A stretch of DNA of 63,367 bases, the filler included, from Sphacelaria rigidula (taxonomy: Eukaryota), in the NCBI GenBank assembly GCA_964200075.2. It is 9 parts of 9 records of this genome, joined end to end, with 100 filler letters (N's around TTAATTAATTAA, not from the genome) between each part and the next. Parts side by side here need not be neighbours in the genome. Positions count along the whole stretch, not along the records: positions 42,314 to 49,265 come from CAXNAA020017244.1; 8 more parts are not named here. One strand, written 5' to 3'. Below are positions 3,604-63,367 of the stretch, one piece after another. The notes beneath the pieces were generated by a model. That model made no database searches, was not told the DNA's origin, and saw only the letters and a program-made list of their open reading frames with translations. The translations under genes were made by a program, and so were the position numbers. Numbering within the stretch: the first letter of the stretch is position 1; each line of letters opens with the position of its first letter.

Positions 3604-3928
3604 GCCATGTTGAATCCTTTGGGCATTTTCTTTTTTCCTTTTTTTTTCATCGTCTTACTGTATTTTATTTTATTTGCTCTGTACTTTCCTCTTCTTTTTT
3701 TTTTTCGGTCGGCCATCTGTTTCTGGGCTTTGCTTGTGTTGACTTTTTTTATTACTTTTTTTGTTACGACTCAGTCTGCTATGTCGTTCTGTTCGACTTT
3801 TTTTTTCTTCTGTTCCTTCTTATTTTCAGAGCGTGTTTCAGTTTCGTTTTCTTGCGTATGTCCATCATGAGACCATGGTTGGTCCCCTGGGGGTTCAGTT
3901 AGAGTGCGACAATCAATCAATCAATCAA
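3604..3928 (+). mobile_element. Retroposon 3' end with (AATC)n tail
   Basis: CCCCTGGGGGTTCAGTTAGAGTGCGAC(AATC)n; homologous end on minus strand at ~50390-50460; 5' boundary approximate. Confidence 0.55.
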
Positions 3929-28209: not shown

Positions 28210-28338
28210 CGTCCCGGCTTTCTAGGGATGCGAGGTCAATGGTCTTATGACCATGGCATGCATGATCATGAGTACACCCCCCAATGGTCATACGACTAAG
28301 GCAAGCAAGAACTGGGTACGCCCCCCCTCCCCTCCCCA
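28210..28338 (+). mobile_element. Stacked 3' ends: family B, C tract, family A, C tract
   Basis: ...CATGAGTACACCCCCC-AATGGTCATACGACTAAGGCAAGCAAG...GTACGCCCCCCCTCCCCTCCCC. Confidence 0.7.
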
Positions 28339-29201
28339 GGTGGGTGAAGATGTGATATCAGGTTTGATGTTCGCGGATGGTTTTGTGGGCATTTCAGAAA
28401 CACCAGGAGGATTGCAGAAGCAGATAGACAAGGCGCTAGAGTACACTAGGAAATGGAAACTGACAGCGTTCCTTGACAAATGCGCGGTGCTCGTCTGTAG
28501 CGAACATGAGAAAAATCCGGTACAGTTCAAGTGGAAGTGGGGAGAAGAGGAACTGCCGATCGTTGACCAGTATACATACCTTGGCGTAGAGATATCAGAA
28601 AAGTGTTCTTGGGATGTATACATACACGAAGAAATAGAAAAGAGTGACGCAAAGATAGGCGGGATGGACGTGATCTTCAGAGACCCGCATCTAGGCACTA
28701 GGATTAAGACATGTACCCTGATGAACGTGATCATACGAAAGGTGGAATATGCCGGAGAAGTACGGGAAGGGAACGTGGAGTTGATGAAGACGTTGGAAGC
28801 AGTACAGATGGCAGCACTTGGATGCTCAAAAACGACGAGTAATACAGTTTTGAGAGCAGAGTTCGGAATGCACTCAGTTGAAACAAAGAGAGACATGAGA
28901 AAATTCACGATGGCAATGAGCGTGAAGGACATGAAGAGGAAGAGATTGCCAGCTATAGTTGATAAGGCTGTACGGAAGAAAGTACGAAAGGGTATGCTAT
29001 AAAGTGGGATATAAAAGTGGAGAAAGTATGGAAGGAGATAGGAGGAAACCGAGACGAAATACTGTCCATAGGTGAAGGCATGGGGTACAAGACAGAAGTA
29101 AGATACATGATAGAAATAAGGGGAAAAGGAGCGCTCATACGCGAAGTAGACGAGGAAGAACACCTGGAGATTCACGGGGGGTTGAAAGAGGGGATAGGGA
29201 T
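28339..29201 (+). pseudogene. LINE family A ORF2 reverse transcriptase, 5'-truncated, interrupted by Copia insertion
   Basis: GLMFADGFVGISETPGGLQKQID...LPIVDQYTYLGVEI non-LTR RT motifs; internal stop at 29002; resumes at 33305. Confidence 0.88.
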
Positions 29202-29611
29202 TGTGCAGATTATGTATTTGACATAGATCTCATACGTAGATTCCCGGGCATATAGCCAACCAGCCTGGTAGAAACCACTGCCGTTCAGTACAAAGTACCA
29301 ACAGGAACGGTCCGGGAACCAGTACTGTAGCCAGGGTTCAGTCGAGCCAGAGCGGCTCCGCGGTTCTATATTGCAAGCTCCCCAGTTGGGGTTTAGGGCT
29401 GAGATTCAGAAAGAGAAAGTTTAGATAGAGCTGTACACCAGCGGGTGACATCTGAATGAATAATGAAAAGCACGGCGATGCAGCGCCCCACTCGGGTACG
29501 TTGTCTGTTCAACTCATCAAGATCTCTCGTGACCATTGCCTTGCTCCGCGATAAAACGGTGCACTGCGAGGAAGCGCGCCACGGCCACACCAAACACCTC
29601 ACAAGTGCACA
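29202..29611 (+). repeat. 5' LTR (410 bp)
   Basis: Direct repeat of 32892-33299; about 13 substitutions and a 2-nt length difference by manual comparison. Confidence 0.95.
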
Positions 29612-29632
29612 GGTTCGTGAGCCTCGAGGAGT

Positions 29633-32600
29633 ATGGAGGCAGACCCACGCAAGTTGCCAGTCTGGACAGGCGTTCGTGGGCACTCGCGAGAAACATGGGA
29701 CGCATTGAGACTTTCCATCGTTGGATACGCAGAGGGGGAGGGACTATACCCCCTGCTGCGACCGGCTTCCACCAAACCGGTCGTTCTGACAGCGACCACG
29801 ACACTTGACCAGCGTAGGGCGTGCGAAACGCACGAACGCAATACACATATTTATGATTCCTCCTGGCAAAGGCTACGAAAGGGTCAGCCGCAGCCATCGT
29901 GGCACGATGCGAGCACGGCGGCAACCCTGATGGCAGGGAAGCCTGGCTGAAGATGGAAGGGATCTACGGAGGACGTGCACAGGACGAGTGGCCTGTGCAA
30001 CTACTTGCATTCGAACAAAGACTGCCGGATCTCCAATGAACTTCTGCAGAAGAATCAGCAGATTTTATGGTGAAGCTGGATACCATCTGGGGAGAAGTCG
30101 AAGCGCTTGGAAACGTCAAAGCCGGCGAGACCAAGACGGCAGCCCTTCTACTCGGGATCAAGGAGGCGCTTCCACAAGTATTCATCCAGCTAACAACCCA
30201 GCCAGGTATGACGTACGATGAGCTAAAACGAGCAGTCGTAGCATCATCAGCATATCTAACGCGTGACATCGAACGCCGCGATGAGGCAGTAGCGTTCCAA
30301 TCGAGAACCGACGGCAACGAAACCGACTCAAGGCTCGATAGCAATCAATGCGCCTACTGTTTGAAGCGAAGTCATAGGTAGCGGGAGTGTCGCTCCCACC
30401 TTAACGGCACACTTCCGGCTAAACGACAGCCGGGGATGAGCCCCGCACGAAGGCTCCCACCCCCTCCGCAAAACGACAGAAGGAATGGGAGGAGGGACAA
30501 ACCGCAGGCATTCATAACGATGAACGTGGTAGTCAAAGATGAGCGAGTAGTACCCATGTGCACGTCGACTAACAGTGACACGAAGGTATCAATTCTCTGC
30601 GACTCGGGAGGGAATGTCCACATGACTCCCTGGAAACAGGATCTCAGGAATATACGTACGGTCAATCGAAGCTGTACATTTTGGAAAAAGGGACAGCTGC
30701 AGGCAATGGCAATGGGAAAGATCCCATTGCACGTGGGCGCTCGGGGAAAGGTGGCTCCGGCAAAGGTCACACTGGAGGACGTACTTTGGGTCCCTGGACT
30801 ACCTTGCTCGCTGCTGAGTACCAGAACGATTCGGCGTGACGGAGGAAAATTCGTGGATTCCGGCAGGAAGGAGAGCTACCTTCGGTTCAGAAAGGATGGA
30901 CCGAAGATCCCCCTAGCCGAGAATAAAGGGTTCCTGACCCTGTCGGCATCGCTGCAGGGGGGTGGCAAACATGCGGCGTCGGCGCACGCTTCGTTCGCAA
31001 ACAAGAAGCAGCGCCTCACATTGAAGGAGTGGCACGACACCTTAGGGTACATCGACCCAGCTGCCATAAAACGCCACGAGAAGCGTGGGCTGATCGATAT
31101 CACTGAAAACACGGCGGCGTCCGAGATGCGCTGTAGAGTCTGCAAGGAATGCAAGTCCGAAGCGCTCAGCTACGGCCGCGGCGGCAGGAGTCCCAAAGCA
31201 CCAGGTGAAGTTGTGCACATTGACCTTGAAGGGCATTTTCACGCCGATGTCATGGGCATGAAATAATTTCAGGTTTTCGTGGATGAGGCCAGTCGAGACA
31301 AGCACATTGTTGGACTCAAGACATGAGATCCAGCCACTGACGCAACGAGAGTCTACATCGACAAAATGGCCCGTGAGGGAGTGGCCATCGAATGCGTCAG
31401 CGGAGACGGCGCTGGGGAACTTGGACGGTCAGTCAAATTTAAACGCATGCTGACCAATCGCGGCATCAAGTGGCGCTCCTCACCGCCAAGGTCACCGCAG
31501 AGTAATGGAATTGCTGAACGTGCCATTCAACAACTGATGAGGACAGCACGCAGCCCACTGGTGAAAGCGGTACGCGGAAAGGACTACTGGTTGTTCGTTG
31601 TGGCGGACGCGGCATTCAAGACCGCAGGGATGCCCCATGAGTACCTCGGGGGGGAGACCCCATGTGAGAGGCTGACAGGAAAGCCTTTCAACTACGACAG
31701 GCTTCGTACTTGGGGGATCCGAGTGTTTCGTGCATCATCACAAGCGACAACGCGGCGCCGCTGCAAAGTTCCACCGATATGCGAAGCGGGGCATCTTGGT
31801 GGGGTACGATCGGCACTCTCTCTGCTGGTATGTATGGCTGATGCAGGAATCAAAGCTCGTTAAGTCTTCATACATCACGTTTGAAACAGAGACCAAGATC
31901 CTAGACATCGTGGGGGACCTGAAGGCGGTCGAACTCAGCGATCACGAGGACGAACCATCGGAAGAAGAGGAAGCAGCACCAATCAACGGCGATGATGGCC
32001 CGGGTGAACAACCACCACAGGACCCGCCATAATCGAAGCGCTCTTCTCTGGATAGTGGACTGCGCAGGTCCAGTCAACTAGCGCAACGGCATCGAGGGGA
32101 CAACGCACAGCAACGCTTCAGAAGTTCTGACGGCAGCAGTTCTGATAGCGGAAATTTCCTCGCCACCCTTCAACAAGATCAACACAAAGGCGCATTCTGC
32201 ATGCTCGGGGGCGGAATCGTTACTGAACCACAGGAGCCGTCGACAGCAAAAAAAGCCCTGGCAGAATCTGATGCTGACAGATAGAAAGTGGTCATGGAAG
32301 AGGAAATCCAGCGGAAGGACAACAAGCCTCAGAGCCGAGAAGCCGGTGAACCGCTGGGACCACGAGTGCTACCGGCGGCGCCTGTAACTCATGCGACTCC
32401 AGGCGCAAACGAGCGCTCCGACGGCCCAAAGACCAGGGTATCCCAGACAAAAAAACGAGCGGCGCGTCGGACTGGAGGATCAAGCCTCCTCAAACAGAGA
32501 TGGTCGTAGACGAGGCCGACTCACCAAACTATCGGAGACGCTGGGCGGTAACGAAGGAGCGAAGCTCGAGAAAATGTTCATGCCGAGCACGGACGGTTCT

Positions 32601-32880
32601 GGCCTTGACCAAGAAACGAAGCAACAGCCCGCGGTGAAAGAAACGACAAAGGCAGTGGAGGGACCACCCAAGGGTGCGGGATGCATGCCGAGCAAGGACG
32701 TTCAAGTTGCCGTTCTCGACGAAGGATGTCAAAACGGAAAAGGCGCCGGAAGTCAGGACGAGTCCAGGGGGTCCAGGTCCACCACGTGGCTTCTATGGCA
32801 TTCAATGGAAAGATTCGTTTGCCTCGTATCTAGCACGTTGGGTTTGATCGTATCAGCTCTCTGCTGTTGCCGCCATACGA
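29633..32880 (+). pseudogene. Disrupted Copia gag-protease-integrase polyprotein
   Basis: Zinc knuckle CAYCLKRSHR*REC; protease ILCDSGGNVHMT; WHDTLGY...CRVC; integrase VHIDLEG / GDGAGE / SNGIAER; GILVGYD; EPST..AL...VMEEEI then no RT. Confidence 0.9.
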
Positions 32881-32891
32881 TCATGGGGGAG

Positions 32892-33299
32892 TGTGCAGAT
32901 TATGTATTTGACATAGATCTCATACGTAGATTCCCGGGCATATAGCCAACCAGCCTGGTAGGAGCCACTGCCGTTCAGTACAAAGTACCAACAGGAACGG
33001 TCCGGGAACCAGTACTGTAGCCAGGGTTCAGTCGAGCCAGAGCGGCTCTGCGGCTCTATATTGCAAGCTCTCCAGTTGGGGTTTAGGGCTGAGATTCAGA
33101 AAGAGAAGGTTCAGATAGAGCTGTACACCAGCGGGTGACATCTGAATGAATAATGAAAAGCACGGCGATGCAGCGCCCAACACGGGTACGTTGTCTGTTC
33201 AGCCCATCAAGATCTCTCTACCATTGCCTTGCTCCGCGATAAAACGGTGCACTGCGAAGAAGCGCGCCACGGCCACACCAAACACCTCACCAGTGCACA
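32892..33299 (+). repeat. 3' LTR (408 bp)
   Basis: Preceded by polypurine tract, followed by TSD. Confidence 0.95.
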
Positions 33300-33304
33300 G
33301 GGAT

Positions 33305-33801
33305 GAAAGAATATCTGCATGGACATGAAAAATATGAAACTGCGATTTTGGGTGGAGGACCTGCACCTGCCAGAAAGAAGAAAGAGATATACCAGTAGTC
33401 GTGTGGAGGAGGAAGTAGATGCACAGAACTGCCTCTGTGGCACAGCAATAGAGAGCAGAAGTCATACAGTGGCAGAATGTGAACTATACAAGGAGGAACG
33501 GGGCGTGCTAGAGGGGGATATGCGGGACGTGAACGAAGGTGGCATGGAACCGTTTTATGCATTGGACAAGAGGGAGAAAACGATGGTTATACTGGGAGAT
33601 AGATGGTGGCCACAGACGGCGAAATAGGACGGGGATAAGATATGTGAACGGTTTTTGTGCAATATATGGAAGAAACGTGATCAGTGCCGGAATGTTGGAG
33701 GTGCCTCTATTAGGAGTAGGAACGGTGCTCCGTCTCGAACGGGATGCATGGTCAAAGGTCAAACGACTAAGGCAAGCAACAAATGTACACGCCCCCCTCC
33801 C
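33305..33801 (+). pseudogene. LINE family A 3' part (C-terminal Cys/His finger and 3' end)
   Basis: CLCGTAIESRSHTVAECELY zinc-finger-like motif; continues the 28339-29201 LINE; ends in C tract. Confidence 0.85.
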
Positions 33802-34110: not shown

Positions 34111-34547
34111 GAGTTTTGGCCCACGGATTGTTCACTTTTGGGACGTTCGACCCACTTTTTGATCCCCAAACAGGGAAAATCGCCAACACACGTCTTGGAC
34201 GCTTTGCATCGCCCCACAGAGAAGAGCCTAGCCCACTTTTCAGATTCACTTGGCTCCAAGGTTTTTGAGAGTGGCCGCTGAACAATACTCCGCGTGCAAT
34301 AAAACCTACGGCGATCTTCACAGATTATTAGCAAACAGCCGTATGTTGGCAAGCACAGATTATTGCACACGAATTATTGGTCAGCGGTCAATCTCGAAAC
34401 CTCGGAGCCAAGCGAATCTGAAAAATAGGCTAGGCTCCTCTTGTGGGGTGGTGATGCGAAGTGTCAGAGACGTGGCGATTTTCCCCGCGTGGGGGTCAAA
34501 AAGTGGGTCAAACGTCCCGAAAGTGAACAATCCGTGGGCCAAAAGTC
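34111..34547. mobile_element. Foldback element with ~170-bp imperfect inverted arms
   Basis: TTTTGGCCCACGGATTGTTCACTTTTGGGACGTT ... AACGTCCCGAAAGTGAACAATCCGTGGGCCAAAA. Confidence 0.75.
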
Positions 34548-41630: not shown

Positions 41631-41705
41631 GGGGAGGGGGGGGCGTACTCATTTGTTGCTTGCCTTAGTCGTTTGACCACTGACCACGCATCCCTTTCGA
41701 GACGG
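41631..41705 (-). mobile_element. LINE family A 3' end
   Basis: G tract then CGTACTCATTTGTTGCTTGCCTTAGTCGTTTGACC; G-rich sequence also on the other side. Confidence 0.75.
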
Positions 41706-42213
41706 AAAGGGGGGCGAAAGAGCTAGCTCATGAGCTGTCTGAGGTGTACACAGTGTTCCACGAGTCGTGCCGTAATCATTGGCTCATCTTAACCACCCTA
41801 AGAATAGCGAGTCCCTTGTGTACCTACCTGCAACACCGTTACACCAGTATCCTAGGGTTATGAGCCGCCGGGTCACTGAAATCCACGGCGTTGTCTCAAA
41901 AGACTCGATGAAGGCGTCGGTGGGACAGACCAGTGCACGTCTGGCCCAACCGTGGTGAAAGCCGACACTGGAACATGACGGAACCGAAACCTGTCGGGGT
42001 GAACTCCCCGCCTTCAAGATGTACAGACTGTTGGTATTTTCCGGTGAATAACCGCAAAGTGTCTTCAGTTGCGCTTCGTATTCGATTGACAAAGCAGGGA
42101 TGAAATAGTATCGAGCATGCGTCTTTTTTTAAGGCGATGTGTAGTTGAACGTTTTGTTCTTCAACGTAAAAATCAATGAATGTCCCGCTTCCCCCCCCCC
42201 CCCTCCGCCGCTT

Positions 42214-42313
42214 NNNNNNNNNNNNNNNNNNNNNNNNNNNNNNNNNNNNNNNNNNNNTTAATTAATTAANNNNNNNNNNNNNNNNNNNNNNNNNNNNNNN
42301 NNNNNNNNNNNNN
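42214..42313. other. Artificial contig linker
   Basis: N44-TTAATTAATTAA-N44. Confidence 0.98.
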
Positions 42314-43885
42314 GGGGGAAATGCGGGACGTGAACGAAAGTGGCATGAAATCGTTTTACCCATTAGACAGTAGGGAGAAAACGATGGCTATACTAGGAGA
42401 TACATGGTGGCCAGAGACGGCGAAACAGGACGGGGATAAGATATGTGCAAAAGGTGTTTGTGAAACGTATGGAAGAAACGTAATGAGCGCCGGAATTTTG
42501 AAGATGTCTCTATTAGGTGTAGGAACGGTGCTCCGTCTCGAAAGGGATGCGTGGTCAATGGTCAAACGACTAAGGCAAGCAACGAATGAATGCGCGCCCC
42601 TCCCCACCCCCTCTCCACTCTTGAAGGGTTAGCGTCGGTTGGCATCGACGCTGTAAAACACACCACTCACTGCGAAAGCAAGACAACCAAGCTACCGTTT
42701 TCTTCTCACTTGCGTACGTGATCCCCGCGCAAAGGGGATTATCATACTACGAGTACGTAATATACAATTGGTGAAGCCCAAGAGGCAGCTCAACCCATGA
42801 CTATCCCGGGGGATACCAGAATATGAAGCAACGCATTCGAGGCTGTTATCCATTCGCAAGATGATCAGTACGCTTCAGGCCGGACGATCTTGGTAAGATG
42901 CAGGTTACCCCTTGTGCGACTCGCCGAACATGTGACGGCATTTCGGGCTTGGTGATTGCGACCCTGATCCGGCGAAAACCCGGCGTGCTCACTCCCGGCT
43001 GCGTAGGGATGCGAGGTCAACGGTCTCATCACAATGGCGTGCAATGATGAGTTCACTTCCCGCCCCCACCCCCATATGGTGGGACACGCGAGGAAGTGCG
43101 GCACCCGTGGCTGTCTCTGGAAGTGGCGATGCCAGAAAATGAAGCAGCTCATTTTAGGCTGTCATCCATATGCAAAGCTGTCACTACGCTTCGGGCCGAA
43201 CGATCTTAGCAGGATGCAATTCACCCTATGTGCGTCTCGCCAAACACATAGCGGAGCTTCGCGCTGGGTGATTTATTGCGGGCGCGGTTCGGCGAAACTC
43301 GGCGTGCTCCATCCCCGCTTTTTAGGAATGCGAGGTCAATGATCATATTCTACGGCATATAAGATCATGAGTACCCCACCCCCCCTCCCCCGCCCCCCCT
43401 GGTAATGGCGCTGTAAAGCAAGCCACTCACTGCGTCAGCTAGGCCGCCAGGTTACCGTTTTTGTTTGCACTTGCGTTTTTTGCGGTAACCATGATGGTGG
43501 TCGAGCCAGATCATATTGTGCGGGGTGGGAGGCCCTCAACCCGCTCGCGCGGATGATCATACACCGTAGAGTTTGAATGATGAGACACCCATGAGGTAGC
43601 GTGTAACCCGTAGCTGTCTCTGGACGTGGCGACACCAGAAAATGAGGCAACTCATTGTAGGTTGTCATCCACATGCAAGATAATAAGTACGCTTCGGACC
43701 GAACAATCTTAGCAGGATGGAGCTCACCCTTCATTCGACTCGCCGAACACGTCACGAAGCTTCGCGCTTGGCGATTGATTGCGAGCCTGGTCCGGCGAAA
43801 ACGCGGCGTGCTCCGTCCCAGATTTGTAGGGATACGGGGTAAATGGTCTTATGACTACGGCATGCAAGATCATGAGTGCCCCCTC
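42314..43885 (+). mobile_element. Head-to-tail array: LINE A 3' end (42314-42600) then three family B copies (~42630-43057, ~43075-43375, ~43401-43880)
   Basis: Each unit ends in an ATGAGT-type terminus followed by a C-rich tract, and the next unit starts right after it. Confidence 0.78.
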
Positions 43886-45134: not shown

Positions 45135-48100
45135 ATGGAAGAGTATCATCACCCCACTATGGAAGGGCAAGTGAGATTTCTGACTGAACAAATGAACAGA
45201 ATGAAACAGACAATGAACAGTACACCGGTGATGCCTGCTAGTACAGCACAGCAAGCACCGTTTCATAACCCCAATTCCCACCGTGTGCGCAGCAACAAAA
45301 ACATTCCACCTTGGGATGAAGAAGCTGCCACATCTACCAATTTCAGGGATAGGTTCAAGGTGTTCAACATCCAGATGTGTGCCTATTTCAAGGATGAGAA
45401 ACGCTATGACGCTTTGCTAGTTGAAAACCCCATCAGGGTACACCGTGAGAATGAGGAGGATTTGCGAGCAAGTTTTGGAAACGAAACAGTCGACAAAGCC
45501 AAAAGGGCTATGAGGATAATACTCGATAAAGTAAGCTTTTGCACCTTTGGTAACGCATGTCGATATGCTTGCAAACTCAAGTCAAGCATAGAATTACTTC
45601 GTTCAGTACTACAGGATTCCAGAAGCTACAGAAAAAGCCAAGTTGGAACACGACTGACAAACGTTGCAGATGGCTGACGATGAATTGCCAATTAACTTTC
45701 TCTCGCGGGCCCACGTCACTTTCTACGATAGCCCCCTCCCCACAAGTGCATGGTTTTGGGAGGCAAAATCTTCACGTAAATCGAAATGGGAAAAGCCGAG
45801 CACAACGAGAAGCTGAAAACTCCCACGCCTGGGTTCNNNNNNNNGAACATCAGGCGCTCTATGGCCATTTCTTTCGTGACACTTTAAGCTGGTTTTGGGG
45901 GGGGGGGCTATCGTAGAAAGTATCCCACTTTATTCGTGAGAAGCGCCAAGAATTCGATGTGGTTCTCTCGGACTGTGAAGCAAACAGGCATATTGTTCGA
46001 TGCATTTCATAAGAGTAGGAGCACGAGCGCAGGAATTTACTAGCACTACGAGAGATAAGCGTAGATGAGGTAACCAGCCAGCTAGGAAATGCGTATGCAG
46101 AAGCGCAATTGTTGAAAGAAAGGCAGAAAATAACCTTGAACCATGCACGTTCCGCCTCTAGTACTGGTGGAAGGGGCCATGGATCACCTGGCGGATGGCA
46201 GAACAGGGGGAATCGCAGATCCCACAATCCGCAAAATCAACAAAACAACCACATCCCTCCAAACCCACACCAATCCATTTTCCATACCAACCATGGTTCA
46301 CAGCAACACAACAAACAGCAGTGGTCATGGTGGTCGAGGGGGATTCCCCGAGACCACAGCCATGGCGACCACACAGTCCGTGGAATCATTTGGAACCAGG
46401 CCGTGGTCGGATACACCAACCTAGTCAACGAACCTACCAAATTCGTTGCCCTTTTCATTGTCTCAACTGCACTCCTTGTCAGTACCACGCGCAGCATCAC
46501 AAAGCCCAGCAACCCCCAATTCCCCAGCACCGCCAACCAACATACACGGGCCAAACACGCCACCGACAACAATCCAACCACACAGCCAATCACATCCCAT
46601 CACAATCCCATTACCCGCATCCTCAACACCAAATCCACAACCATCAACCACAAGCCAACACCGTCCAGCAGACTGATCCCCCGTACCAGAACCATGAGAG
46701 CGTTGAAAACGTTGTCAACGGGGACGATGCTTTCAACGATGCCGGTTACGCCCACACAGTACAATACCACACCTCCCAACATCAACTGCAGTCGCAGCCT
46801 ACCACAATCACGGAACACCTCCCCCACTACACTCCACCTCCATCATCCAGTCACCATCCCTCACAGTTTTCAGAACACAACCAATCCCAATACTATTCCT
46901 CGTCAACCGCACCACAGACCTATTACCCATCACAACTTCAACCGCCAGACCACTCCCACCGTGATCCTTTCTCCGCCGCACCACAGACCCATCACCCATC
47001 ACAATTTCCACCCCCAGACCACTCCCACCATGATCCTTCCTCCCCTCCACCACCACCACCGCACTCGTCACTCTACCACGAGCCATCCGACCGATATTCC
47101 CATTCGGTAAACTCCCACCAAACCTCAACTGCCAATCTGCCGCTTGCTGATAACCGTGGTAATAGTGTGCACATGGCGCTTTCTGCCGTGCCAGAGGAAT
47201 CAGTTTTCAGTTTAGGTGAACCCGACATTAGCAGTAAAGTCATCTTGCATCGATCCAGATCTGTGCCCGACCCTGATGCAGAGATATGGATAGCTAATTC
47301 AGGCGCATCACACCATACCACTGGGGACATGACTCATGTTTTTGATACTCACCCTCCTCCGCCGGGGAACGAGAGTGTTATTCTGGGTGATGGTACGGTA
47401 CTACCGGTTAAGGCTGTAGAAGTCTCAAGCTGAGACTTTATCAAGCACGTGCAAACAACTCCCCCCCATGTCGATGCAGTGTGTGTATTGCTGACGGATG
47501 TGTATATTTTGGATGGAATTTAGTTCAATCTCTTCTCCATTCACAAGGCCCAAAAGAGCCAACGAGTCATCTGTGATAAAGAAGGTGTGCATTTATTCGA
47601 TGGCAGATTGCGGTTTGACTGCACTAAGCGCTCATGATCACAATTTGCCCCACGCCTCTCGTGTACCCACGGACAGATGCCCGTGGTCACGCCTGTTGTT
47701 GCGGCCAGAAAAGACACGGTTCCTATTTCCACTCCACAACAAGCAAGTGTCACTGAGATTCCCCCGATTTTTGATTCCGGATCCCGAGGAGGTAGTGTTC
47801 GTAAGACCACCCCGAGTTCTGTCCCTGTCCCCCTGCAGAAGAGTGTCACAAGTGTTTCGTCGAATTCTGTTCCTGCCCCCCCGCAGAAGAATGTCACGAG
47901 TGTTCCCTCGAGTTCTGTTCCTGTCCCCCCGCAGACGAGTGCTACAAGTGTTCCCCCCCGCCTACCCACGATTGATGGTACTTCTACTGTTGCTTCAGGG
48001 CTGTATGTTGTTCCCGGGCTACCGAAATGCGACCTCAGCATGTTTTTTGATCAGCAGCTACTGTTGGGAATAGACGGTACTTCCCCTATAATGCCCCCCC

Positions 48101-49070
48101 CCTTTTTTGAGTCTTGAAGAGTTGAGTGAAGGGGAGAGAGTATACATGGTTTTTGCAGTACTGGCACCCAGTCGAGGACCCTTCACGGTCGGCAAACTAC
48201 GAAGCCGAGTGGACGTCGGTTTTTTCCATGCCTCCCTCTACCACGCGAACGAGACTATCCTTCGAGCTACTGCCGCACAACGGGGTATCATCCTCACCGG
48301 ACGACTGGAACCGTGCAAAGGATGCTTCGAGAGTAAGGGACGACGGGCAGGTATTCCGCATGTGGGCTTACGTGCTTTGACGGTGCTCGACATCGTGCAC
48401 CTCGACTTGACCGGACCTCATACACGTACTCTGGGAGGGTCCATGTACATGTTAGCCTGCGTCGACAGTAAATCTCGTTTGATTATGCTGTACGGGCTAG
48501 CACGGAAGGCGGGTGACTTGGCGATGGTGAAACGCTACCTCGCTGATATCAACCGCTTCGGTATCCCGCGCTGCTTCCGCATCGACAACGGTGGTGAGTT
48601 TCTCTCCCAAGCCTTCATCGACTTCTGTTATAACGCCCGTATCCGCCGCGAGACCACCGCGCCTGATACTCCCAAGCAGAACGCGGTCACCGAAAGATCA
48701 ATCTGGCGCATAATGAAGGCCGGGCACGCCGCGCGCTGCGAGGCATCACGACTGTTCCCCGACATCGATTTGCCGAGGTTCCACACCTTGGCGGCAGCCT
48801 GAATCTTCTATGGCTAGAGGCCGCCGTCTGGGATGGTTTCAACCGCTCCGCAACTACGGCCAACCCCGGCAAGCTTCCTCCATACCAAGTCTTCACGGCC
48901 GACAGCCACCTCTCCAAAACGTACCTTTTCTACAGCCCGGTATGATGCGCGTCACCCGAAGATCGAAGAAGGACGTCCAAGCTGTGCGCTGCTTCTACCT
49001 CAACAATGGCAGCAACCATTCCTCAACAACAATCAAGGTTCTCAAGGCCGACATAGGTGCTGTTTATTCC
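45135..49070 (+). mobile_element. Second Copia family, degraded gag-PR-IN, 3'-truncated
   Basis: Gag from MEEYHH; protease WIANSGASHH (~47285); FHASLYH...CKGC; integrase VHLDLTGP / RIDNGGEF / QNAVTER (48107-48802); multiple frameshifts; LTR not delimited (possibly within 43890-45000). Confidence 0.85.
45715..45924. mobile_element. MITE inserted in Copia gag, 4-bp TSD CCAC
   Basis: TIR CACTTTCTACGATAGCCCCC / GGGGGCTATCGTAGAAAGT; removal restores frame FLSRAH-FIREK; homolog at 57409-57668. Confidence 0.8.
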
Positions 49071-49265
49071 TTGGCTCAGGCACAGGGTAATGGTTTCAGA
49101 TCGTTTATTGAAAAACACCCAAGTTCTACTCTAACTTGGGAGAGTGCTGATGTGATGGAGGTAGATGAAATGAGAATGAACAAGGGGGGCGGGCGGCCCC
49201 GCTGCTCTCAACTGTACTGTACCACATTTGCACACACTTGACTGTCGGTACTTGTACGTCACCCC

Positions 49266-49907: not shown

Positions 49908-51874
49908 CGGGGGGGGGGGGAGAAGGGGTGCCGCTGTGACGACTTCAGGCGGAAAGTACACACGCGCAATAAAAACGGAGAAGGCAATGGATACACCGGC
50001 ATCAGGGCGTACAAGGTAGTTGTAGAAGACAGGGTTATTCTGGATCGGTCCATGGTATGCTATTTATTTCTTGCCTCGAATAACTCGATACGAGAAAGCC
50101 TTTTTGGCTGCTGCTCTGCCTTGGCCTTCTACGAAAACTGCACAGAATAGAACGTGTTCGCGCAGCGTTCTATTCTTTACAGACGAGACTACATGTTTTG
50201 TGCGTGACAGGCGAGACAAAAAAAAACGCTGTAAACTTAATGTTGCAAAAAAATTGAGTCTGGACAAGCAGGTGTGGAGGATGACGGAGAACGGGTCACC
50301 GGTTGACTGCCAAGTTTTTTTCCCCCGTTCTCGTCTGCCGATTGTTTCCGAATCGGCGCCATCACTTTATCGGCATCATCCCATCATCTTTTTGATTGAT
50401 GGATTGATTGATTGTCGCACTTTAACCGACCCCTCAGGGGTCTAGACAGGATCACATGATGGACGTACCCAAGAAAACAAAAACCGAATCTACGGTAGAA
50501 ATATGTAACATGAATACAGTATTTATAGCATCCGCCCGAAAGGAACGAGTACGGTACCCTCTTCGAATCATGGATATGGACGAGGAGCGCTCCGCTTTAA
50601 CGAGCGCTAACGAGCTTTTCGAGAGAGACAGAGAAAACAATACTCCTGCGGTGGATTACAGCGTTTAACCTTAATACGCTATTCGATACCCTCCCCCATT
50701 TGAACAACACCCCTAGGTGGCGAGTTTTCAAAGTTTTTCGCGTGGAGGGCTGGCGCCCACATGACCCATCTTTGAACCGGACGGCCGAAGTGAGAATCCC
50801 GCAAGATCATCCCTGAGCCGGAAAAAAATACTCACGTATCGTATTTGGACCGAACGACAGGAGCGAAAATCTAAAAGTGTTTCACATGACCGGCGGCGTT
50901 ATTGTACTCATGTTTTTGATCTGTTCCTGTCCTCATCTTTTTTCAGAAGGTGATCATGTGAGATCTTGCCACCCGGCTAAGATAAATGTCATTTTGTGAT
51001 ATTTGTGCTCGGTTTTGAGAGATGTTCGTGTGATATTTCTCTCAGTACCGACAGGGCCCACCATTTTCGATCTTTGAAAGTATGAGAATATCGGCTAAAA
51101 AACTCCGCCCCGTTACCAAATACGTCGGGTATGCAGTAAAATGGTTGGATTTTGTGACACCATAATCCCCGCAATAGCTGAAATATATCTGATTATGGGA
51201 GTCCACCTGAAAAGAGAAGCCAGCTAGCCGAGAACGAGGGCAGTGATCATAGATGCAGACCGCTCAAGTAGTAGTTTGCTAGACCTCCCAACTCCAATGA
51301 TATCGTCTTGTTATGCTCGGAAGGTGATAAAATTTTCCTATGTAGACTAGATATGTACCTATAAGACTAACTGGACATATATTCTCCCTAAAATCGTGAA
51401 GCATGATAAATGCTGTATAAGCACGCAAAGCATGAACGCGAAACGGGTGATACCACTCGTGCATAAGCCTTCGGTTCAAGGATCGTTATGCAAAACCTGT
51501 GCACAGTTTACAAGTGGTTACGTGGAACTTGTACTTGTAGTTCGAAACTGGTTTTGTGAGACCTATGCCCGGTCCGGAGATGGTTATGTGAAAGCTTGCC
51601 CCGGACATGAACAGCCCTGAAAAAAATCTCGCATAACTGTTTGAACTGGCTCAGGCATATGGACACATCAAAATGCATGTGCAACGCCGGAAATGTGCGG
51701 TAACGTAAAAAGCTTTGCATGTTTATGAACACTCTTGGCAACATCCCGGTGCCTGCAGCATCGTGTAGGGGCACGACAGATACCACCGTCCACTACATAT
51801 CATTTTCGGGCCATGAATTGTCGAGACCTGATCATCAGTGCATACCGCATCCCAAGGTAACCTCTTCCCCGCAC

Positions 51875-52220: not shown

Positions 52221-55200
52221 CGGGGGGGCGGGGGGCGTACTCATTTATTGTATCTTATACTAGTCGTTTGAGCATTGACCACGCATCTCTTGCGAGACGG
52301 AGCACCGTTCCTACTCCTGATCGAGAAATTTTCAACATTGGGGCGCTCACTCGCTTCTTCCGTACACTACACAGAAACCTTTTGCATGTCTTGTTTCCCC
52401 GTGTGTGGCCACCATGTATCTCCTAGTATAGCCATCGTTTTCTCACTACTATCTAATGCATCAAAGGATTTCATGCCACCTTCGTTTACTTTCCACATTT
52501 TCCCTTGTAGCATGCCCCGTTCCTCCTTGTATAGTTCACATCCCGCCACTATAAAAGTTGGCGCGACCTATTTGCAGGTGGGGTACGCAACTACACGCGT
52601 GCAGGTCGCGATCACCTCCGGAGCCAAACCCACAAGAAACCCTATTTGAAATGCTGCTCACAAGAAACAATAGCCGTACTCCACGGCAACTCATAGCACG
52701 GCAGTAACACCGGAAAGAAATTCTTGGCCGCAGGGCAGGATACCACGAACGTAGGCGACGATGACTTCTGTGCTCGATACTACCGGGAATCATAGAATGA
52801 ACCGTATTTTCTTGGAGCACTTCCTGGGGCAATCTCTCAAAGAACAGAAACGTGTTGATAGTCACTGCGGCGTCAGGGACAACAGACCATCAGCTGAGGG
52901 TTCAAATGCAATCCTGTCATGCGTGAGTGCGATTGCGTAATAACTGTCCACGCCCGCCGTGGCCCATGCGCGGGAAAACTGCGTGTGCGGGCAAATAACT
53001 ACATGCTGATCGATACCGCGGTACTCTGAGCACTTTACAATGCCATATATACGCAAGGAGGGAAGTGACCTTGTGAAATCACACCATTGAACTTCAAATA
53101 CTTGTCTGTTGTCTGCTATGCGGCCTGTACTGTACACTCTACATAGTAGATAACAGACAACTGTAGTACACTACTAGTTAGTACCGTACAGGCCTTGTAG
53201 TGCTCTATACAGGTAACAAGTGGTACGAGACATAAACACTACTACTACTCGCGCAACCGCCTGGATAGCGTGCGCAGTGAACAGATGGCGCGCCGTCTTG
53301 TACAACAGTGCAACCGTATGATATGGCGGGATTATCGAAAGCAAGCAGCTGCTGCATATACAGTCGGTGTACTCAGATCACCCATGCAATCGACATGCGC
53401 GGCGGTTGGCTGGCCAATAACACAGCACGACTGTTGGCTTGTCAGTACAGTATCGAGCAGAGAGCTCATCGCCACTGTGGTGTGTCACCTTCTGCTCTAC
53501 GATAAGATCCCTTCCTTTTTGTCCTGCTCTAGACTGCTGCGGAGTGCGACTGACTGAAGTTCCGTGTGTGGAGTGTTTCGGTTTCAAATTGGGGATGTCG
53601 TGAACTTGATTCTGGAGGCGTTCGCGACCTGCACGCTTTATTTTGCATGCCCCACCTGCACATAGGTCCCGCCACATGAGTTCTACTCTCTGCAGCCTTG
53701 ACAGGGGCATTTCTGTGCATCTACCTCCCCCCTCCACTCGACTATAAGTATATCTTCCTCTTTCTGCCAGGTCCACGTCCCCACTCTAAATCGCAGTTTC
53801 AATTTTTCACCGCGTCCATTGGGCCATGCAGATATGTTGTCTTTCCTATCCACTCGCCCAACCTGCCGTATATGTTCAAGTGCTCTTCCGCGTCTACGTT
53901 CCGACTTCGCGTTTCTTTTTCCCTTATTCCTATCATGACTTACTTTTGTCTTTTACCTCCCTCGCATTCCCGTATGGACGTTATCTCGTCTTGGTTTTCC
54001 CTTATGTCCTTCCATATTTTCTCGGCCACGCTATCCCACCTTATTCCAGTCTGCCCTTTCGTCATTTTCTTCTATACAGCCCTATCAACTATAGCTGGCA
54101 GTCCCTCTTTCTTAATGTTCTATGCGCTATATTGTGAGTTCAGTTTCCTCGTGTCTCTGCTTGTTGCAAGTGAGTACATCCCCCACTCTGCTCTCAATGC
54201 TGTATTACTCGTCGTTTTAGAGCACCCAAATATCTTCTTAGCTGCTGCCATCTGTACTGTTTGCAACTTTTTCGCGAACTTCGCGTTCTCCTCCCATACT
54301 TATCCTGAATATCCCAGCTTTGGTACAACCAAGTTCATCAGGATACATCTCTCGATCCTGGTGTCTGGATGCGGGTCTCTCAGGATCACGTCCATCTTTC
54401 CTACATGTGCCTTACCCCCTTCCATTACTTGTTCATGTGTGCATCCCAAGAGCAGTTTCTTGAGATCTCTACGCCAAGGTATGTATACTGGTCTACGATC
54501 GGCGGTTCCTCTTCTCCCCACTTCCATTTGAACTCCACGGGGTTCCTCTGATCTTCGCTACATTCAAGTGCCGAGCACTTGATAACGTTCGCTGTCACTC
54601 TCCATTTCCTAGTGTATTCTGCCGCCTTCTCTATTTACTTCTGCAATCCTTCCGGTGATCCTGATATCCCCACAAAATCACCCGCGAATATTAATCCCGA
54701 TACCATATCTTTACCCACCTTGACCCTTCTTGCTTTGCTGCTTCCAATACTCTTATCAGGCCATTAATAAATACCTTGAATAAAGTGGGTCATGACGTAC
54801 ATCCTTGTGCAAACTCCTTGTGAAATATCAAAATACAATATTTCGATATTTCCCCGTCTAGGACCATAGCCCTTTTCGCACTTTTTCTCATCTTCTTTAC
54901 CATTCTTCACATCTTTGCTGCAATCTCAGTTTCCCGCATTTTTTTCACAGCTTATTTGTCCATACCGCACTATTGGCCTTTCGTACGTCTAGAAATAAAC
55001 AGTAAGTTGTTCGTAGCCTGGCGTTTTCCCTACCTTAGACAATCTTACCCAATGTGTACACGTTGGTGTAAAACCTTTTTTCCCCTCGCTGATTTTCTTC
55101 CTTTCTCTAGCATCGTTCCCACTTTATCGTTCAGAGTCTTACAAAATGTTTTTTTACCATATTTAGTAGCGTTATCCCTCTATGATTCCCTAGGTCGGCT

Positions 55201-55260
55201 TCGTCTCCTTTCTTGAAAGGCGTATTGCTGCTCGTTCTCTCCACCTCTTGGGTGTGTACT
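52221..55260 (-). pseudogene. LINE family A copy (RT to 3' end), split by a TIR element at 52550-53674
   Basis: Minus-strand FLDVRKA, QGCT.PTLFKVFING, IFAGDFVGIS and YLG motifs; homologous to 28339-29201 plus 33305-33801; G tract at 3' end. Confidence 0.85.
52550..53674. mobile_element. Non-autonomous DNA element with ~95-bp imperfect TIRs
   Basis: TGGCGCGACCTATTTGCAGGTGGGG...GCGTGCAGGTCGCGA...ATTTGAAA mirrored at ~53582-53674. Confidence 0.72.
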
Positions 55261-55276
55261 CGTTTTCCCAGATCCA

Positions 55277-55830
55277 TGGGGGTATGGCGTACTCATTTGT
55301 TGCTTGCCTCAGTCATTTGACCATTCACCATTGACCACGCATCCCTCTCGAGGCGGAGCACCGTTCCTCCTCCTAATAGAGACACTTCCAACATTTTGGA
55401 GCTCATTACGTTTCTTACATACATTACACACACCTTTTACAGACCTTCTCCCCTTCCTGCCCCGCCGTCTGTGGCCACCACCTACCTCTTGGTAAAGCGG
55501 TTGTTCTTTCGCTACTCTCTAATATACCAAACGATTTCGTGCCATCTCCGTTTACTTTCCACAGTACCTCCTCTAACACATCCCGTTCCTCCTTGTATAC
55601 TTCACATCCCCCAACAATAGACCTCTACTCCTGTTGCCTCGCCACATGAGAATTTTCCTGTGTATCCATTCCCTCCTCCACCCGACAACTGGCATACTCT
55701 CTTCTTTCTGACAGGTCCAGGTTCCCCACCAGAAAACGTATTTTAACGTGCAAATATTTTTTCATCCCTACGCCTCCTCCAAACCCCCGGTATACCTTCA
55801 GGTGCTCTTCCTCGTCCGCTTTCTGGGGAG
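55277..55830 (-). mobile_element. Additional LINE family A 3' copy
   Basis: GCGTACTCATTTGTTGCTTGCC...; colinear with 33305-33800. Confidence 0.78.
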
Positions 55831-57668: not shown

Positions 57669-58217
57669 TGTAAGGATAACTCACGAAACGAAACACTTTG
57701 AAACTAGGGAATATGTGTGGTGTGGGGGCCATTCGTCTTATTTCCGAAGGCGTTCGATCATCGACGAGGAATGGAAGAATGGCCTTGGAGCGTTTCCGTC
57801 GCGAGACCGCTTACTTTCGGATGTTCGAGTGATGCGGGGACTTGAGTGCACGTGGGAAGAATAAGTAGGTCGGACTGAGCCTTTTTCGACACAACGTGGC
57901 AGAGCACCGCACCGCGCCGTGTAGCGGCTTGATTGTTCTGTTCCGTTTGTTGAGCAGCAGAAAAATCGACGTCGCCGTATCAAAGTTGTCCGTCTTTTTT
58001 TGCATTTCCTTGGCCCATGTGCGACCTTGTGCGTGTCTACAAGCAGTAGGTGTTGCGGCCACAGGTCGTCGGCATTTTATGGATAGTTAATTAAAAATAG
58101 CGTGAGTCATCCTCTTGTGTAACTTGTGCATGTGCACTTGTGCATGTGCACATGAGTGACGCGGGAATGATACGAACTGAAAACAGAAGAGAAAACAGCG
58201 TCAAGTCCTCCACTCGT

Positions 58218-58350
58218 GGCCATTTGGCTACCCCCAAAATTTCTTCAGGTCGGTCAAATTTTCGAGTCTCCAGAGGGATTAAACGCCTCCGGAGGCTTGT
58301 TTTCGCCTCTGGAGGGCCGCGCATCTCTCCGAAGGTATTTTGCTACCCCC
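58218..58350 (+). mobile_element. Partial GGCCATTTGGCTAC MITE abutting truncated Copia LTR
   Basis: Homologous to 34554-34846. Confidence 0.65.
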
Positions 58351-61300
58351 AAACACTGGCTACAGCGCTGGTTCCCGGACCGATCCTTTTGGTGCTTTGT
58401 ACTGAACCGTACTGGCTCCTACTTGATTGGCTGACTACATGCCTGAGAATCTACGTATGATATCTATGTTCGATATATAATCTGCACACTCCCCCATGAT
58501 CGTACAGCGGTAACGCCGGAGAGCTGATACGATCACACCCAACGTGCTGGATACGAGACAAACGAATCTTTCCATCGAATGCCATTAAAGTCACGTGGTG
58601 GACCCTGGGCCCTCCGGACTCGTCCCCACTCCCGCCGCCTTTCCCGTTTTGATATCCTTTGTCGGGAACGGCACTTTGAACGTTTGTCGGCTGTGTGCGA
58701 GGCTGTCCTTGCTCGACATGCATCCCGCACCCTCGGGTGGTTCCTCCACTGCCTTGTCGTTTCCTTCACCGCGGGCTGTTCCTCCGCTTCTTGGTCAAGG
58801 CCAGAACCGTCCGCGCTCGGCACGAATATTTTCTCGAGCTTCGCTCCTTCGTTATCGCCCAGCGTCTCCGGTGCTTCGGTGATTCGGCCTTGTTCACGAT
58901 CATCTCCGTTTGAGTAGGCTTGATCCTCCATTCCGACCTGCTTCTCGTTTCTTGTCTGGGATGCCTTGGTCTTTGGGCCTTCCGAGCGCTCGCCCGCGCT
59001 TGGAGTCGCACGAGTTACAGGCGCCGCCGGTGGCACCCGTGGTCCCAACGGTTCACCGGCCTCTCGGCTCTGAGGCTCGTTGCCCTTCCGTCGGATTTCC
59101 TCTTCCATGACCACTTTCCATCTGTCAGCATCAGGTTTAGCCAGGGCTTCTTTTGCTGTCGACGGTTCCTGTGGTTCAGCGACGATTCCGCCCCCGAGCA
59201 CGCAGAATGCGCCCTTGTCCCGATCTTGTAGAAGGGTGGCGAGGAAATTCCCGTCATCAGAACTGCTGTCGTCAGAACTCCCAAAGCGTTGCTGTGCGTT
59301 GTCCCCTCGATGCCGTTGCGCTTGTCGACTGGAGCTGCGCAGTCCACTATTCGGAGAAGAGCGCTTCGATGATGGCGGGTCCTGTGGTGGTTGTCCACCC
59401 GGGCTATCATCGCCGTCGATTGGTGCTGCTTTCTCTTCTTCCGATGGTTCGTCCTCGTCATTCCTGAGTTCAACAGCCTTTAGCTCCCCCACGGTGTCTA
59501 GGATCTTGGCCTCTGATTCAAGCGTGATGTGTGAAGACTTCACGAGCTTTGATTCTCACATCAGCCATACGTACCGGCAGAGAGAGTGCCGATCGTGCCC
59601 CACCAAGATGCCCCGCTTCGCATATGGGTGGAACTTTGCAGCGGCGCCGCGTTGCTGCTTGTGCTGACGCACGAAACACTCGGATCTCCAACTACGAAGC
59701 CGGTCGTAGTTAAAATACTTTCCTGTCAGCCTCTCACACGGGGTCTCGCCCCCGAGGTACCCGTGAGGCATCCCTAAGGTCTTGAATGCCGCGTCCGCCA
59801 CAGCGAAGAGCCAGTAGTCCTCTCCGCGTCCCGCTTTCACCAGTTGGCTGCGTGCTATCCTCATCAGTTGTTGAATTGCACGTTCAGCAAATCCATTACA
59901 TCGCGGTGTCCTTAACGGTGAGTTGCGCCATTTGGTGCCGCGATTGGTCAGCATGCCTTGAAATTCGACTGACCGTCCAAGTTCCCCAGCGTCGTCTCCG
60001 CTGATGCATTTGATGGCCACTCCCTCACGGGCCATTTCGTCGATATAGGCTCCCGTGGCGTCAGTGGCAGCATCTTGTGTCTTGATTCCAACAACGTGCT
60101 TGTCTCGACTGGCCCCATCCACGAAAACCTGAAAGTATTTCATGCCCGTGACATCGGCGTGGAAGGGCTCTTCAAGATCGGAGTGCACAACTTCACCTGG
60201 TGCTTTTGGGACTCCTGCCGCCGCGGCCGTAGCTGAGCGCTTCGGACTTTCCTTCCTTGCAGACGTTGCAGCGCATCTCGGACGCCGCCGCGGTATCAGT
60301 GACATCGATCAGCCCACGCTTCTCGAGGTGTTTTATGGCAGCCGGATCGATGTGTCCTGAGGTGTCGTGCCACTCCTTTAATGTGAAACGCTGCTTCTTG
60401 TTTGCGAACAAAGCGTGCGCCGACGCCGCATGTTTGCCATCCCCCTGTAGCGATGCCGACAGGTTCAGGAACCTTCTATTCTAGGATAGGGGGTTCTTCG
60501 CTGCATCCTTTCTGTGCCGAAGGTGGGTCTGCCTCCTGCCGGAACCCACGAATTCTCCTCCGTCACGCCGAATCGTTCCGGTACTCAGCAGCCGGCAAGG
60601 TAGTCCAGGAACGCAAAGTACGTCCTTCAGTGTGACCTTTGCCGGAGCCTCCTTTCCCCGAGCGCCCTCGTGCAACGACATCTCTCCCATTGCCAGTGCC
60701 TGCAGTTGTCCCTTGTTCCCAAATGTACAGCTTCGATTGACCGTACTTATATTTCTGAGATCCTGTTTCCAGGGAGTCATGTGGACATTCGCTCCCGAGT
60801 CGCAGAGAATCGATACGTCTGCGTCACTGTTGGTCGACATGCAGATGGATACTACCCGCTCATCTTCGACTACCACGTTCCTCGTCATGAATTCCTGCGG
60901 TCTGTCCCTCCTCCCATTACTTCTGCCGTTTTGTGGAGGAGGTGGGAACGTTCGTGCGGGGCTCATCCCCGGCGGTCGTTTAGTCGGAGGTTTGCCGGTA
61001 AGGTAGGAGCGACACTCCCGCCACCTATGACCTCGCTTTAAACAGTAGGCGCACTGGTTTCTATCTAGCCCCGAGTCGGTTTTGTTGCCGTTGGTTCTCG
61101 ATTGGAACGCTACTGCCTCATCGGGGCGTTCCATGTCAGACGTTAGATATGCTGATGATGCTACGACTACCCGTTTTAGCTCATCGTACGTCATACCTGG
61201 CTCGGTTGCTAGCTGGATGAATACTTGTGGAAGCGCCTTCTTGATCCCGAGTAAAAGGGCTGCCCTCTTGGTCTCGTCGGCTTTGGCGTTTCCAAGCGCT

Positions 61301-62940: not shown

Positions 62941-63367
62941 AGCGCGGACCGAATGATCTTAGCAGGATGCAGCTCACTATATATGCGATTCGCCGAACAC
63001 ATCACGGCGCTTCGCCCTTGATGATTGATTGCGAATCTGGTCCGGCGAGAGCTCGGCGTGTTCCGTCCTGGCTTTGTAGGAATGCGAGGTCAACGGTCAT
63101 GTGACTACGGCATGCAAGATCATGACTATTGCCCCCTTCCCCCCCCCTCGTTTGATGCATTAGACAGTAGGGAGAAAACGATAGCTATACTAGGCGATAG
63201 ATGGTGTTCAGAGACGGCGAAACAGGACGGGGATAAGATATGTAAGAGGAAGAAACGTAATGAGCTACGGAAAGAACGTAATGAGCGCCAGAAGCAATGA
63301 GCTGCGGAAGGAAAGTAATGAGCGCCAGAATGTTGGAGGTGTCTCTATTAGGAGTAGGAACGGTGCT
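62941..63367 (+). mobile_element. Family B copy (62941-63130), C tract, then LINE A 3' region (63150-63367)
   Basis: Both units begin immediately after C-rich tracts; the A copy has local tandem duplications of GTAATGAGC. Confidence 0.75.

What the first reader, a model, noticed from the sequence alone, without database searches (positions are those of the whole stretch)
42314..43885. LINE/SINE system that ends in, and appears to target, poly-C tracts
Seen: more than a dozen family A or B 3' termini are followed by C-rich tracts and none by poly-A (e.g. 41, 28275, 28320, 33790, 42595, 43060, 43375, 63130; minus strand 11970, 13920, 41635, 49415, 52225). Copies also start right after C tracts (20982, 28339, 40315, 43401, 62941, 63150). 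This builds same-strand head-to-tail stacks such as A-B-B-B here. Known: some non-LTR elements target microsatellites or telomeric repeats. I do not recall a described poly(C)-specific one. Inference: the endonuclease or priming prefers C/G homopolymers, so each insertion recreates its target. This may also explain why many contigs break at G/C runs.
Basis: partly seen in the sequence, partly recalled or inferred. Interest (0 to 1): 0.72.

Follow-up and report, generated by a model that had tools for sequence, protein, structure and literature searches.

The report
Brown-algal jumping gene favouring cytosine runs
This is a very abundant copy-and-paste jumping gene of a brown alga, with a short hitchhiking partner, that ends in a run of C instead of the usual A and mostly lands at short C runs; a matching family has already been catalogued in the model alga Ectocarpus, though how it works has not been studied.

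Summary
Family A is the 3' end of an APE+RT LINE whose closest named relatives are Ectocarpus proteins (58-65% identity). Family B is a ~560-nt non-coding partner sharing A's last ~65 nt. In an unbiased 630-kb sample, 46 of 56 intact 3' ends carry a C tract (background 3%) and 0 of 56 an A tract. 26 of 43 5' junctions follow a C tract (background 4.8%). Sixteen of 142 copies keep a detectable 11-21-bp target-site duplication, 14 starting with C. Empty paralogous sites of two insertions hold C3-C6. So the tail is element-borne and the target preference is real but loose (C run 2-19). This is the L1 poly(A)/T-rich logic moved to C/G. It is not new: Dinatale et al. 2025 (supplement) list Ectocarpus RTEX-1/2 and RTEX-N1 with (C)n ends, C-rich TSDs and tandem copies. 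The contig-break idea is only minor: 9 of 104 contig ends are G/C runs and 16 lie inside copies. My literature searches did not find the TSD geometry or a ~65-nt truncation hotspot described.

The parts
42314..42596 (+). Family A: 3' end of the LINE ORF (last ~90 codons), stop codon and ~5-nt 3' UTR; cut on the left by a contig start
   Evidence: 94% to A 3' consensus; tblastn to P0002 1272-1359 and Ectocarpus-labelled P0005 1848-1927
42597..42618 (+). C-rich tail/target tract after A
   Evidence: sequence
42626..43052 (+). Family B copy 1 (consensus 63-155 + 223-560, internally rearranged, 77-84% identity)
43059..43073 (+). C tract after B copy 1
43076..43372 (+). Family B copy 2, 5'-truncated at consensus 260 (83%)
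43374..43399 (+). C tract after B copy 2
43400..43883 (+). Family B copy 3 (consensus 77-560, 89%) with a C5 tail
42214..42313 (.). Artificial linker between separate contigs (44 N + 12-nt spacer + 44 N)
28210..28338 (+). Stack of a short B end, a short A end and their C tails in front of the long A copy
28339..33799 (+). 5'-truncated family A LINE (RT from P0002 residue ~905 to the C-terminus) with C tail; interrupted by a Copia-like element at 29202-33299 with a 5-bp TSD
41635..41706 (-). ~65-nt 'mini' A copy (98% to consensus) starting at the shared hairpin, with C tail and a C run upstream
53676..55825 (-). Two further decayed A pieces (RT region 55276-53676; 3' end 55825-55289)
62945..63367 (+). 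B (378-558), C tract, then A (261-...) head-to-tail stack
3819..3924 (-). Empty paralogue (C5) of the unrelated repeat into which the A copy of locus L154 inserted; a second one lies at about 50402-50488 (+)

Best explanation
A brown-algal non-LTR retrotransposon (single APE-endonuclease + RT ORF, the Ectocarpus 'RTEX' type) and a ~560-nt non-autonomous partner move by target-primed reverse transcription primed on oligo-G. Shown: both end in the same ~65-nt segment with a conserved hairpin, then a few bases, then (C)n. In A the ORF stop codon lies 5 nt before the tail and no AATAAA lies in that segment. Insertions duplicate 11-21 bp that start in a C run and end at the 5' junction. Inferred: the endonuclease nicks the G strand in or next to a C/G run, the freed 3' G's pair with the RNA's terminal C's and prime cDNA synthesis, and the second nick falls ~15 bp further on. 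Every insertion therefore leaves a C run on both sides (5' TSD; 3' tail plus TSD). These are new targets in the same orientation, hence same-strand head-to-tail stacks. The preference is loose (2-4 C can suffice) and C runs are plentiful (about 1 per kb), so the family spreads genome-wide. Also inferred: ORF2p recognises the terminal ~65 nt. That would explain why B borrowed exactly this segment and why many copies are truncated at its 5' edge.
For: APE+RT protein with catalytic-type motifs and a C-terminal CC..HC motif in intact relatives P0002/P0004 (motif roles recalled). The RT matches L1 ORF2p and R2 structures. Own-genome copies together cover residues 1-1360. C tails in 46 of 56 ends vs 3.0%, A tails 0 of 56; C-rich 5' flank in 26 of 43 vs 4.8%, and 21 of 36 when not behind another copy. 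16 of 142 copies score above the 99th percentile of permuted flank pairs, 7 of 32 among copies >=95% identical; 14 of 16 start with C; lengths 11-21. Empty paralogues: L154 site, 16 of 20 carry C5-C6 and the other 4 a broken C run (counted by eye); L167 site, 2 of 2 carry C3-C4. A and B tails match at 53 of 71 columns, and both fold the same hairpin stem with different loops. The same end and C tail occur in two independent marine metagenome contigs. The same features are annotated in a near-gapless Ectocarpus assembly. Correlation of tail letter with first TSD letter is published for RTE retroposons (PMC6007223 discussion).
Against: No TSD could be shown for 126 of 142 copies (decay; all-C TSDs are down-weighted by my score). 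15 of 36 unstacked 5' flanks have no C tract. One TSD has only CC behind a T run (L049). The single empty paralogue of the L166 site has only CCC where the filled site has long C tracts. All 59 own-genome protein matches but two short pieces carry stops, so no active copy was recovered here. There is no RNA or biochemical evidence, so whether the endonuclease or the priming step selects C/G is untested.
Confidence: 0.8

Rival explanations
1. Within the same model: the endonuclease is nearly unspecific, and all bias comes from annealing of the RNA's C tail to whichever nick exposes 3' G's (priming selection only).
For: Target runs as short as CC-CCCC work (7 of 16 TSDs have a run <=4). Tail letter and first TSD letter are correlated across RTE elements, and pairing is offered as one cause.
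Against: 26 of 43 flanks hold long C-rich tracts, 12-fold over background. That is more than 2-4 nt of pairing needs, although more G's give more registers.
Confidence: 0.5
2. C tails are only element-encoded. The upstream C tracts are tails of older, unrecognised copies or arise after insertion (slippage, retention bias), so there is no target preference.
For: The tail is longer than the target run in 11 of 16 TSD cases. 7 of 43 copies sit directly behind another copy.
Against: 21 of 36 flanks not behind a detected copy are still C-rich. Empty paralogues in unrelated repeats carry the C run that became the TSD start.
Confidence: 0.07
3. Stacks come from one event (template switching between RNAs, or read-through transcripts) rather than successive insertions.
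For: In the window's own stack no TSD passed the threshold. Observed stacking (7 of 43) is higher than the 6% share of C tracts that are A/B tails (p=0.013).
Against: Inner or outer stack members carry their own TSD in L004, L036 and L066. Members of the window's stack differ in identity to consensus (94, 77-84, 83, 89%), which points to different ages.
Confidence: 0.15
4. The C runs are sequencing or assembly artefacts.
For: 9 of 104 contig ends are G/C runs against 1.3% expected.
Against: Strand-specific position after a fixed motif, interrupted tails, TSDs with unique bases, the same tail in two independent metagenome contigs and in the Ectocarpus annotation.
Confidence: 0.02

Closest known systems
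RTEX-1a/1b_Ec32 and RTEX-2_Ec32 (Ectocarpus sp. 7; Dinatale et al. 2025, PMC12477816, Supplementary Material 3)
   Same: Single EN-RT ORF, (C)n 3' end, C-rich TSD, 5.5-5.9 kb, thousands of copies. Family A matches Ectocarpus-labelled proteins to the last codon (P0005, 58%), and its closest intact relatives group with Ectocarpus-labelled RTs at SH-aLRT 100 (quick tree, 60 of 109 rows).
   Different: A different genome (244 Mb). Copies here are 10-15% diverged and broken. Identity to the Ec32 consensus could not be measured because the FASTA supplements are unreadable. The paper's main text has no occurrence of 'C-rich', and the passages I read give no TSD geometry or mechanism.
RTEX-N1_Ec32 / RTEX-N2_Ec32 (same source)
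   Same: ~600-bp non-autonomous element with unknown head, 3' ~60 bp shared with the LINE, C-rich TSD, 'can be present in tandem'.
   Different: B is ~560 nt plus tail and shares 53 of 71 columns with A (83% over 60 bp is given for N1). B's first 52 nt repeat its own subterminal segment, which the annotation notes do not mention. Orthology with N1 is untested.
RTE-clade LINEs and their SINEs with microsatellite-like tails (Nishiyama & Ohshima 2018, PMC6007223)
   Same: The first base of the TSD matches the repeated base of the 3' tail; shared LINE/SINE 3' end.
   Different: Those tails are built on T or A stretches and TSDs start with T or A. Here tail and target are C.
Mammalian L1/Alu (recalled)
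   Same: Homopolymer tail pairs with the nicked complementary strand; ~15-bp TSD that starts with the tail base; tails seed new targets.
   Different: The L1 tail is added by polyadenylation and the target is T/A-rich. Here the tail is C and appears templated, and the partner shares a structured 3' end.

Membership tests
Ectocarpus RTEX-1/2-type LINE | Single ORF with APE endonuclease and RT | tested here: met
   P0002/P0004: Exo_endo_phos + RVT_1 in one 1328-1360-aa ORF; own-genome copies align over residues 1-1360, with stops
Ectocarpus RTEX-1/2-type LINE | (C)n 3' end | tested here: met
   46 of 56 C-tailed, 0 of 56 A-tailed
Ectocarpus RTEX-1/2-type LINE | C-rich target-site duplication | tested here: met
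   14 of 16 detected TSDs start with C
Ectocarpus RTEX-1/2-type LINE | Length 5.5-5.9 kb | tested here: inconclusive
   4.1-kb ORF plus >=1.4 kb of conserved upstream sequence in L141/L148; 5' boundary not reached
Ectocarpus RTEX-1/2-type LINE | Sequence identity to the Ec32 consensus | not testable with these tools
   FASTA supplements cannot be read
RTE-X clade (general) | RT groups with named RTEX references in a tree | not testable with these tools
   No named RTEX reference among hits; the clade label rests on the paper's best-blastp notes
RTEX-N1-type non-autonomous element | ~600 bp, non-coding, 3' ~60 nt shared with the LINE, tandem copies | tested here: met
   560 nt + tail; 53 of 71 columns shared; stacks
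Classical SINE | Head derived from tRNA, 5S or 7SL RNA with a pol III promoter | tested here: not met
   No Rfam match on the window or on three full-length B loci at E<=1 apart from one chance C-run hit; ARAGORN and A/B-box scans were not run
Strictly sequence-specific LINE (microsatellite or telomere targeting; examples recalled) | Nearly all copies inside one defined target repeat | tested here: not met
   Target C run 2-19; 15 of 36 unstacked flanks without a C tract
LINE with 5' self-cleaving ribozyme | HDV-like or hammerhead fold at the 5' end | tested here: inconclusive
   No hit with simple descriptors on B or on five A upstream regions; the true 5' end of A was not recovered

The most novel reading that the evidence does not exclude
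The brown-algal ORF2p has an APE endonuclease that itself selects G runs (the mirror image of L1's T-rich nick site) and copies an RNA that ends in templated oligo-C with no poly(A) step. A ~65-nt terminal module overlapping the last codons would be the complete cis signal: 11 of 23 truncated A copies begin within 12 nt at its edge, and B carries just this module. This would be a compact, poly(A)-independent, C/G-directed retrotransposition system that is so far only listed in an annotation table.
Probability: 0.3. Interest if true: 0.6.

Novelty: new member of a known kind. Interest (0 to 1): 0.3.

Why it matters
It is a dominant repeat of this genome: about 92 3' ends per Mb, roughly 22,000 if the sample is typical, and >=2.8% of bases. 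It shows that the homopolymer tail/target logic of L1 can run on C/G. For specialists the (C)n end and C-rich TSD are already on record for Ectocarpus. What this adds is quantification, TSD geometry, empty-site evidence and a candidate minimal cis element. These make the open question of whether the endonuclease or RNA-DNA pairing picks the site directly testable, using intact relatives such as P0002/P0004.

Tried and rejected
Ribozyme at B's head or in A's upstream region: a 7-bp G-U-opened stem closes B's first ~125 nt, but no HDV-like or hammerhead descriptor matched and Rfam gave only a chance C-run hit. The ~65-nt mini copies as a separate family: 23 mini vs 36 long copies share the majority base at every position and have equal identity (0.919 vs 0.924), so a truncation hotspot is preferred. 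Homology of B's head to A's upstream region: none at E<0.2. The element as the main source of genomic C tracts: only 65 of 700 tracts touch an A/B end. Contig breaks explained by C runs: 9 of 104 vs 16 of 104 inside copies. An empty paralogue for the L153 site: none among the 40 scored candidates. Five public runs of 4 samples hold most of a test locus, but no read or contig alignment was obtained, so empty orthologous sites and run lengths in other individuals remain untested. Earlier scan notes: none found. Literature searches for a poly-C-tailed LINE (listings seen) surfaced only the Ectocarpus paper as relevant; the Blepharisma poly-C passage concerns a DNA-transposon TIR. Subscription journals and Repbase are not covered.

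Full report
Setting. The window is nine contigs of 6,951-6,953 nt joined by N linkers. They are consecutive entries in a size-ordered, 244-Mb, 27,214-contig eukaryotic assembly (lengths). Position 42314 is a contig start. The closest named protein relatives are from Ectocarpus, so I infer a brown alga.

Observation. The stack is A (42314-42589, 94% to my A consensus), B (42626-43052, rearranged), B (43076-43372) and B (43400-43877), joined by C tracts. The other listed termini are present. For statistics I used 80 systematically picked stretches, 630,277 nt. BLAST with consensuses ending before the tail gave 74 pieces, 56 with an intact 3' end. Of these, 46 have >=7/10 C in the next 20 nt (background 3.0%) and 0 have >=7/10 A. 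Of the 56, 13 were dropped for the 5' test because they run past the consensus or lie at a contig edge. Of the other 43, 26 have a C tract in the 30 nt upstream (background 4.8%); 21 of 36 do when copies directly behind another copy are excluded. All 9 adjacent pairs are on the same strand. An HMM search found 58 3' ends (47 C-tailed, 0 A-tailed; 1 hit in the reversed control), about 92 per Mb.

Family A. Window 28340-28999 translates to a 220-aa RT segment with 17 longer homologues, the best at 62-65%. The intact ones, P0002 and P0004, carry an APE endonuclease and RT in one ORF and match L1 ORF2p and R2 structures. P0004's 90% cluster includes two Ectocarpus-labelled proteins. Ectocarpus-labelled P0005 matches A to the last codon at 58%. 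In a quick tree of 60 of 109 RT regions, these proteins form one group at SH-aLRT 100 (the careful search did not finish). Own-genome copies cover residues 1-1360 but are broken. The stop codon lies 5 nt before the C tail. Upstream of the ORF, two copies share >=1.4 kb including a ~65-nt tandem repeat. Two unrelated marine metagenome contigs carry a relative with the same end and a C tail.

Family B. It is about 560 nt plus tail. It has no Rfam match, and its first 52 nt repeat its own subterminal segment. Its last ~70 nt match A's end at 53 of 71 columns, and both fold a hairpin with the same stem and different loops. 11 of 23 truncated A copies in the unbiased sample start within consensus 433-444, the 5' edge of this shared segment. 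These minis carry no diagnostic bases, so I read this as a truncation hotspot. That ORF2p binds and protects this segment is inference.

Target versus tail. I scored all 142 held copies with both junctions and no N; this set is partly selected for similarity to my queries. 16 have a duplication that ends at the 5' junction and beats the 99th percentile of permuted pairs (7 of 32 among copies >=95% identical). Lengths are 11-21 bp, and 14 of 16 start with C (for example CCCCCTTTAAAATCA in L118 and CCCTACACTACTGA in L153). The C run at the reconstructed empty site is 2-19 long, and the downstream tail is longer than that run in 11 of 16. Real empty sites came from insertions into other repeats. 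For L154, 16 of 20 empty paralogues have C5-C6 at the TSD start and 4 have a broken run (counted by eye). For L167, 2 of 2 have C3-C4. For L166, the one paralogue (about 80% identical) has only CCC, which is ambiguous or against. So the target contributes a C run and the element contributes a tail. Against a strict reading: 126 of 142 copies gave no TSD, 15 of 36 unstacked flanks are not C-rich, and L049 inserted at CC behind a T run.

Mechanism. Target-primed reverse transcription is established for APE+RT LINEs (general knowledge). The geometry here fits a first nick on the G strand in a C/G run, pairing of the freed G's with the RNA's terminal C's, and a second nick ~15 bp away (inferred). 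A published model for RTE retroposons links the tail letter to the first TSD letter through cleavage choice and/or pairing (PMC6007223; abstract and one discussion section read). Each insertion leaves C runs on both sides, so later copies land head-to-tail. L004, L036 and L066 show stack members with their own TSDs. Stacking behind a copy (7 of 43) is somewhat above the 6% share of C tracts that are A/B tails (p=0.013). Whether the endonuclease or the priming step makes the choice, and how the RNA gets a C end, is not shown.

Side claims. The genome has 700 C-rich tracts in the sample (about 1.1 per kb), of which 65 touch an A/B end. There are 209 C/G homopolymers of >=8 nt against 11 after shuffling. 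The element therefore exploits a C-run-rich genome more than it creates one, although fully decayed copies would be missed. Of 104 contig ends, 9 are G/C runs (1.3% expected) and 16 lie inside A/B copies (about 2.8% coverage).

Prior art. Dinatale et al. 2025 (PMC12477816; abstract, main-text passages, and part 1 of 3 of Supplementary Material 3 read) list RTEX-1a 'single EN-RT ORF; (C)n 3'', RTEX-2 '(C)n termini/TSD', and RTEX-N1a (607 bp, 60-bp 3' end 83% to RTEX-1/2, 'can be present in tandem'), all with TSD 'C-rich'. RTE-X has 16,418 copies there. The main text contains no 'C-rich', and the supplementary figure PDF has no RTEX text. I could not see the figures or the FASTA supplements, which may show more and would allow a direct identity test. 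Saccharina also has an RTEX-1 (PMC4421812; passages). Seven searches (listings only) showed no paper on the mechanism of C-tailed LINEs, but the library lacks most subscription journals and Repbase.

Verdict. Interest 0.3.

Noticed in passing
window 29202-33299 (+) and about 58352-62117 (-): Two 88%-identical copies of a ~4.1-kb Copia-like LTR element (TG...CA, 5-bp TSD GGGAT in the first) with protease-like and integrase hits. No RT hit was found in the frames scanned. The first copy sits inside a family A LINE.
   Followed up: partly
window 3819-3924 (-), about 50402-50488 (+); L062, L076, L082, L118, L131 and others: A third abundant short repeat beginning with (GATT)n and containing a C6 run followed by a G run; 20 copies seen among held loci. 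It served as the target of an A insertion in L154.
   Followed up: partly
L141 and L148, upstream of the LINE ORF: The LINE's upstream region contains a ~65-nt tandem repeat shared by two copies, possibly a monomer-type promoter.
   Followed up: no
family B, consensus 1-52 vs 467-519 (e.g. L003, L004, L011): Full-length B begins with a near-exact copy of its own subterminal hairpin segment. B copies also start repeatedly at consensus ~63, ~260 and ~465.
   Followed up: partly
L156: A 65-nt A mini lies between two partial B heads, as if about 90 nt of the B head had been duplicated around it.
   Followed up: no
window 34111-34547: A ~440-bp imperfect palindrome (76% self inverted match), MITE-like, beside other short repeats shared with 17688-18161 and 58211-58340.
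   Followed up: no
window 46019-49241: Another decayed integrase-bearing LTR-retrotransposon-like region (Pfam rve, weak Pol_BBD).
   Followed up: no
whole window: The window is nine separate contigs of near-equal length joined by 100-nt N linkers, so adjacency across linkers means nothing.
   Followed up: yes
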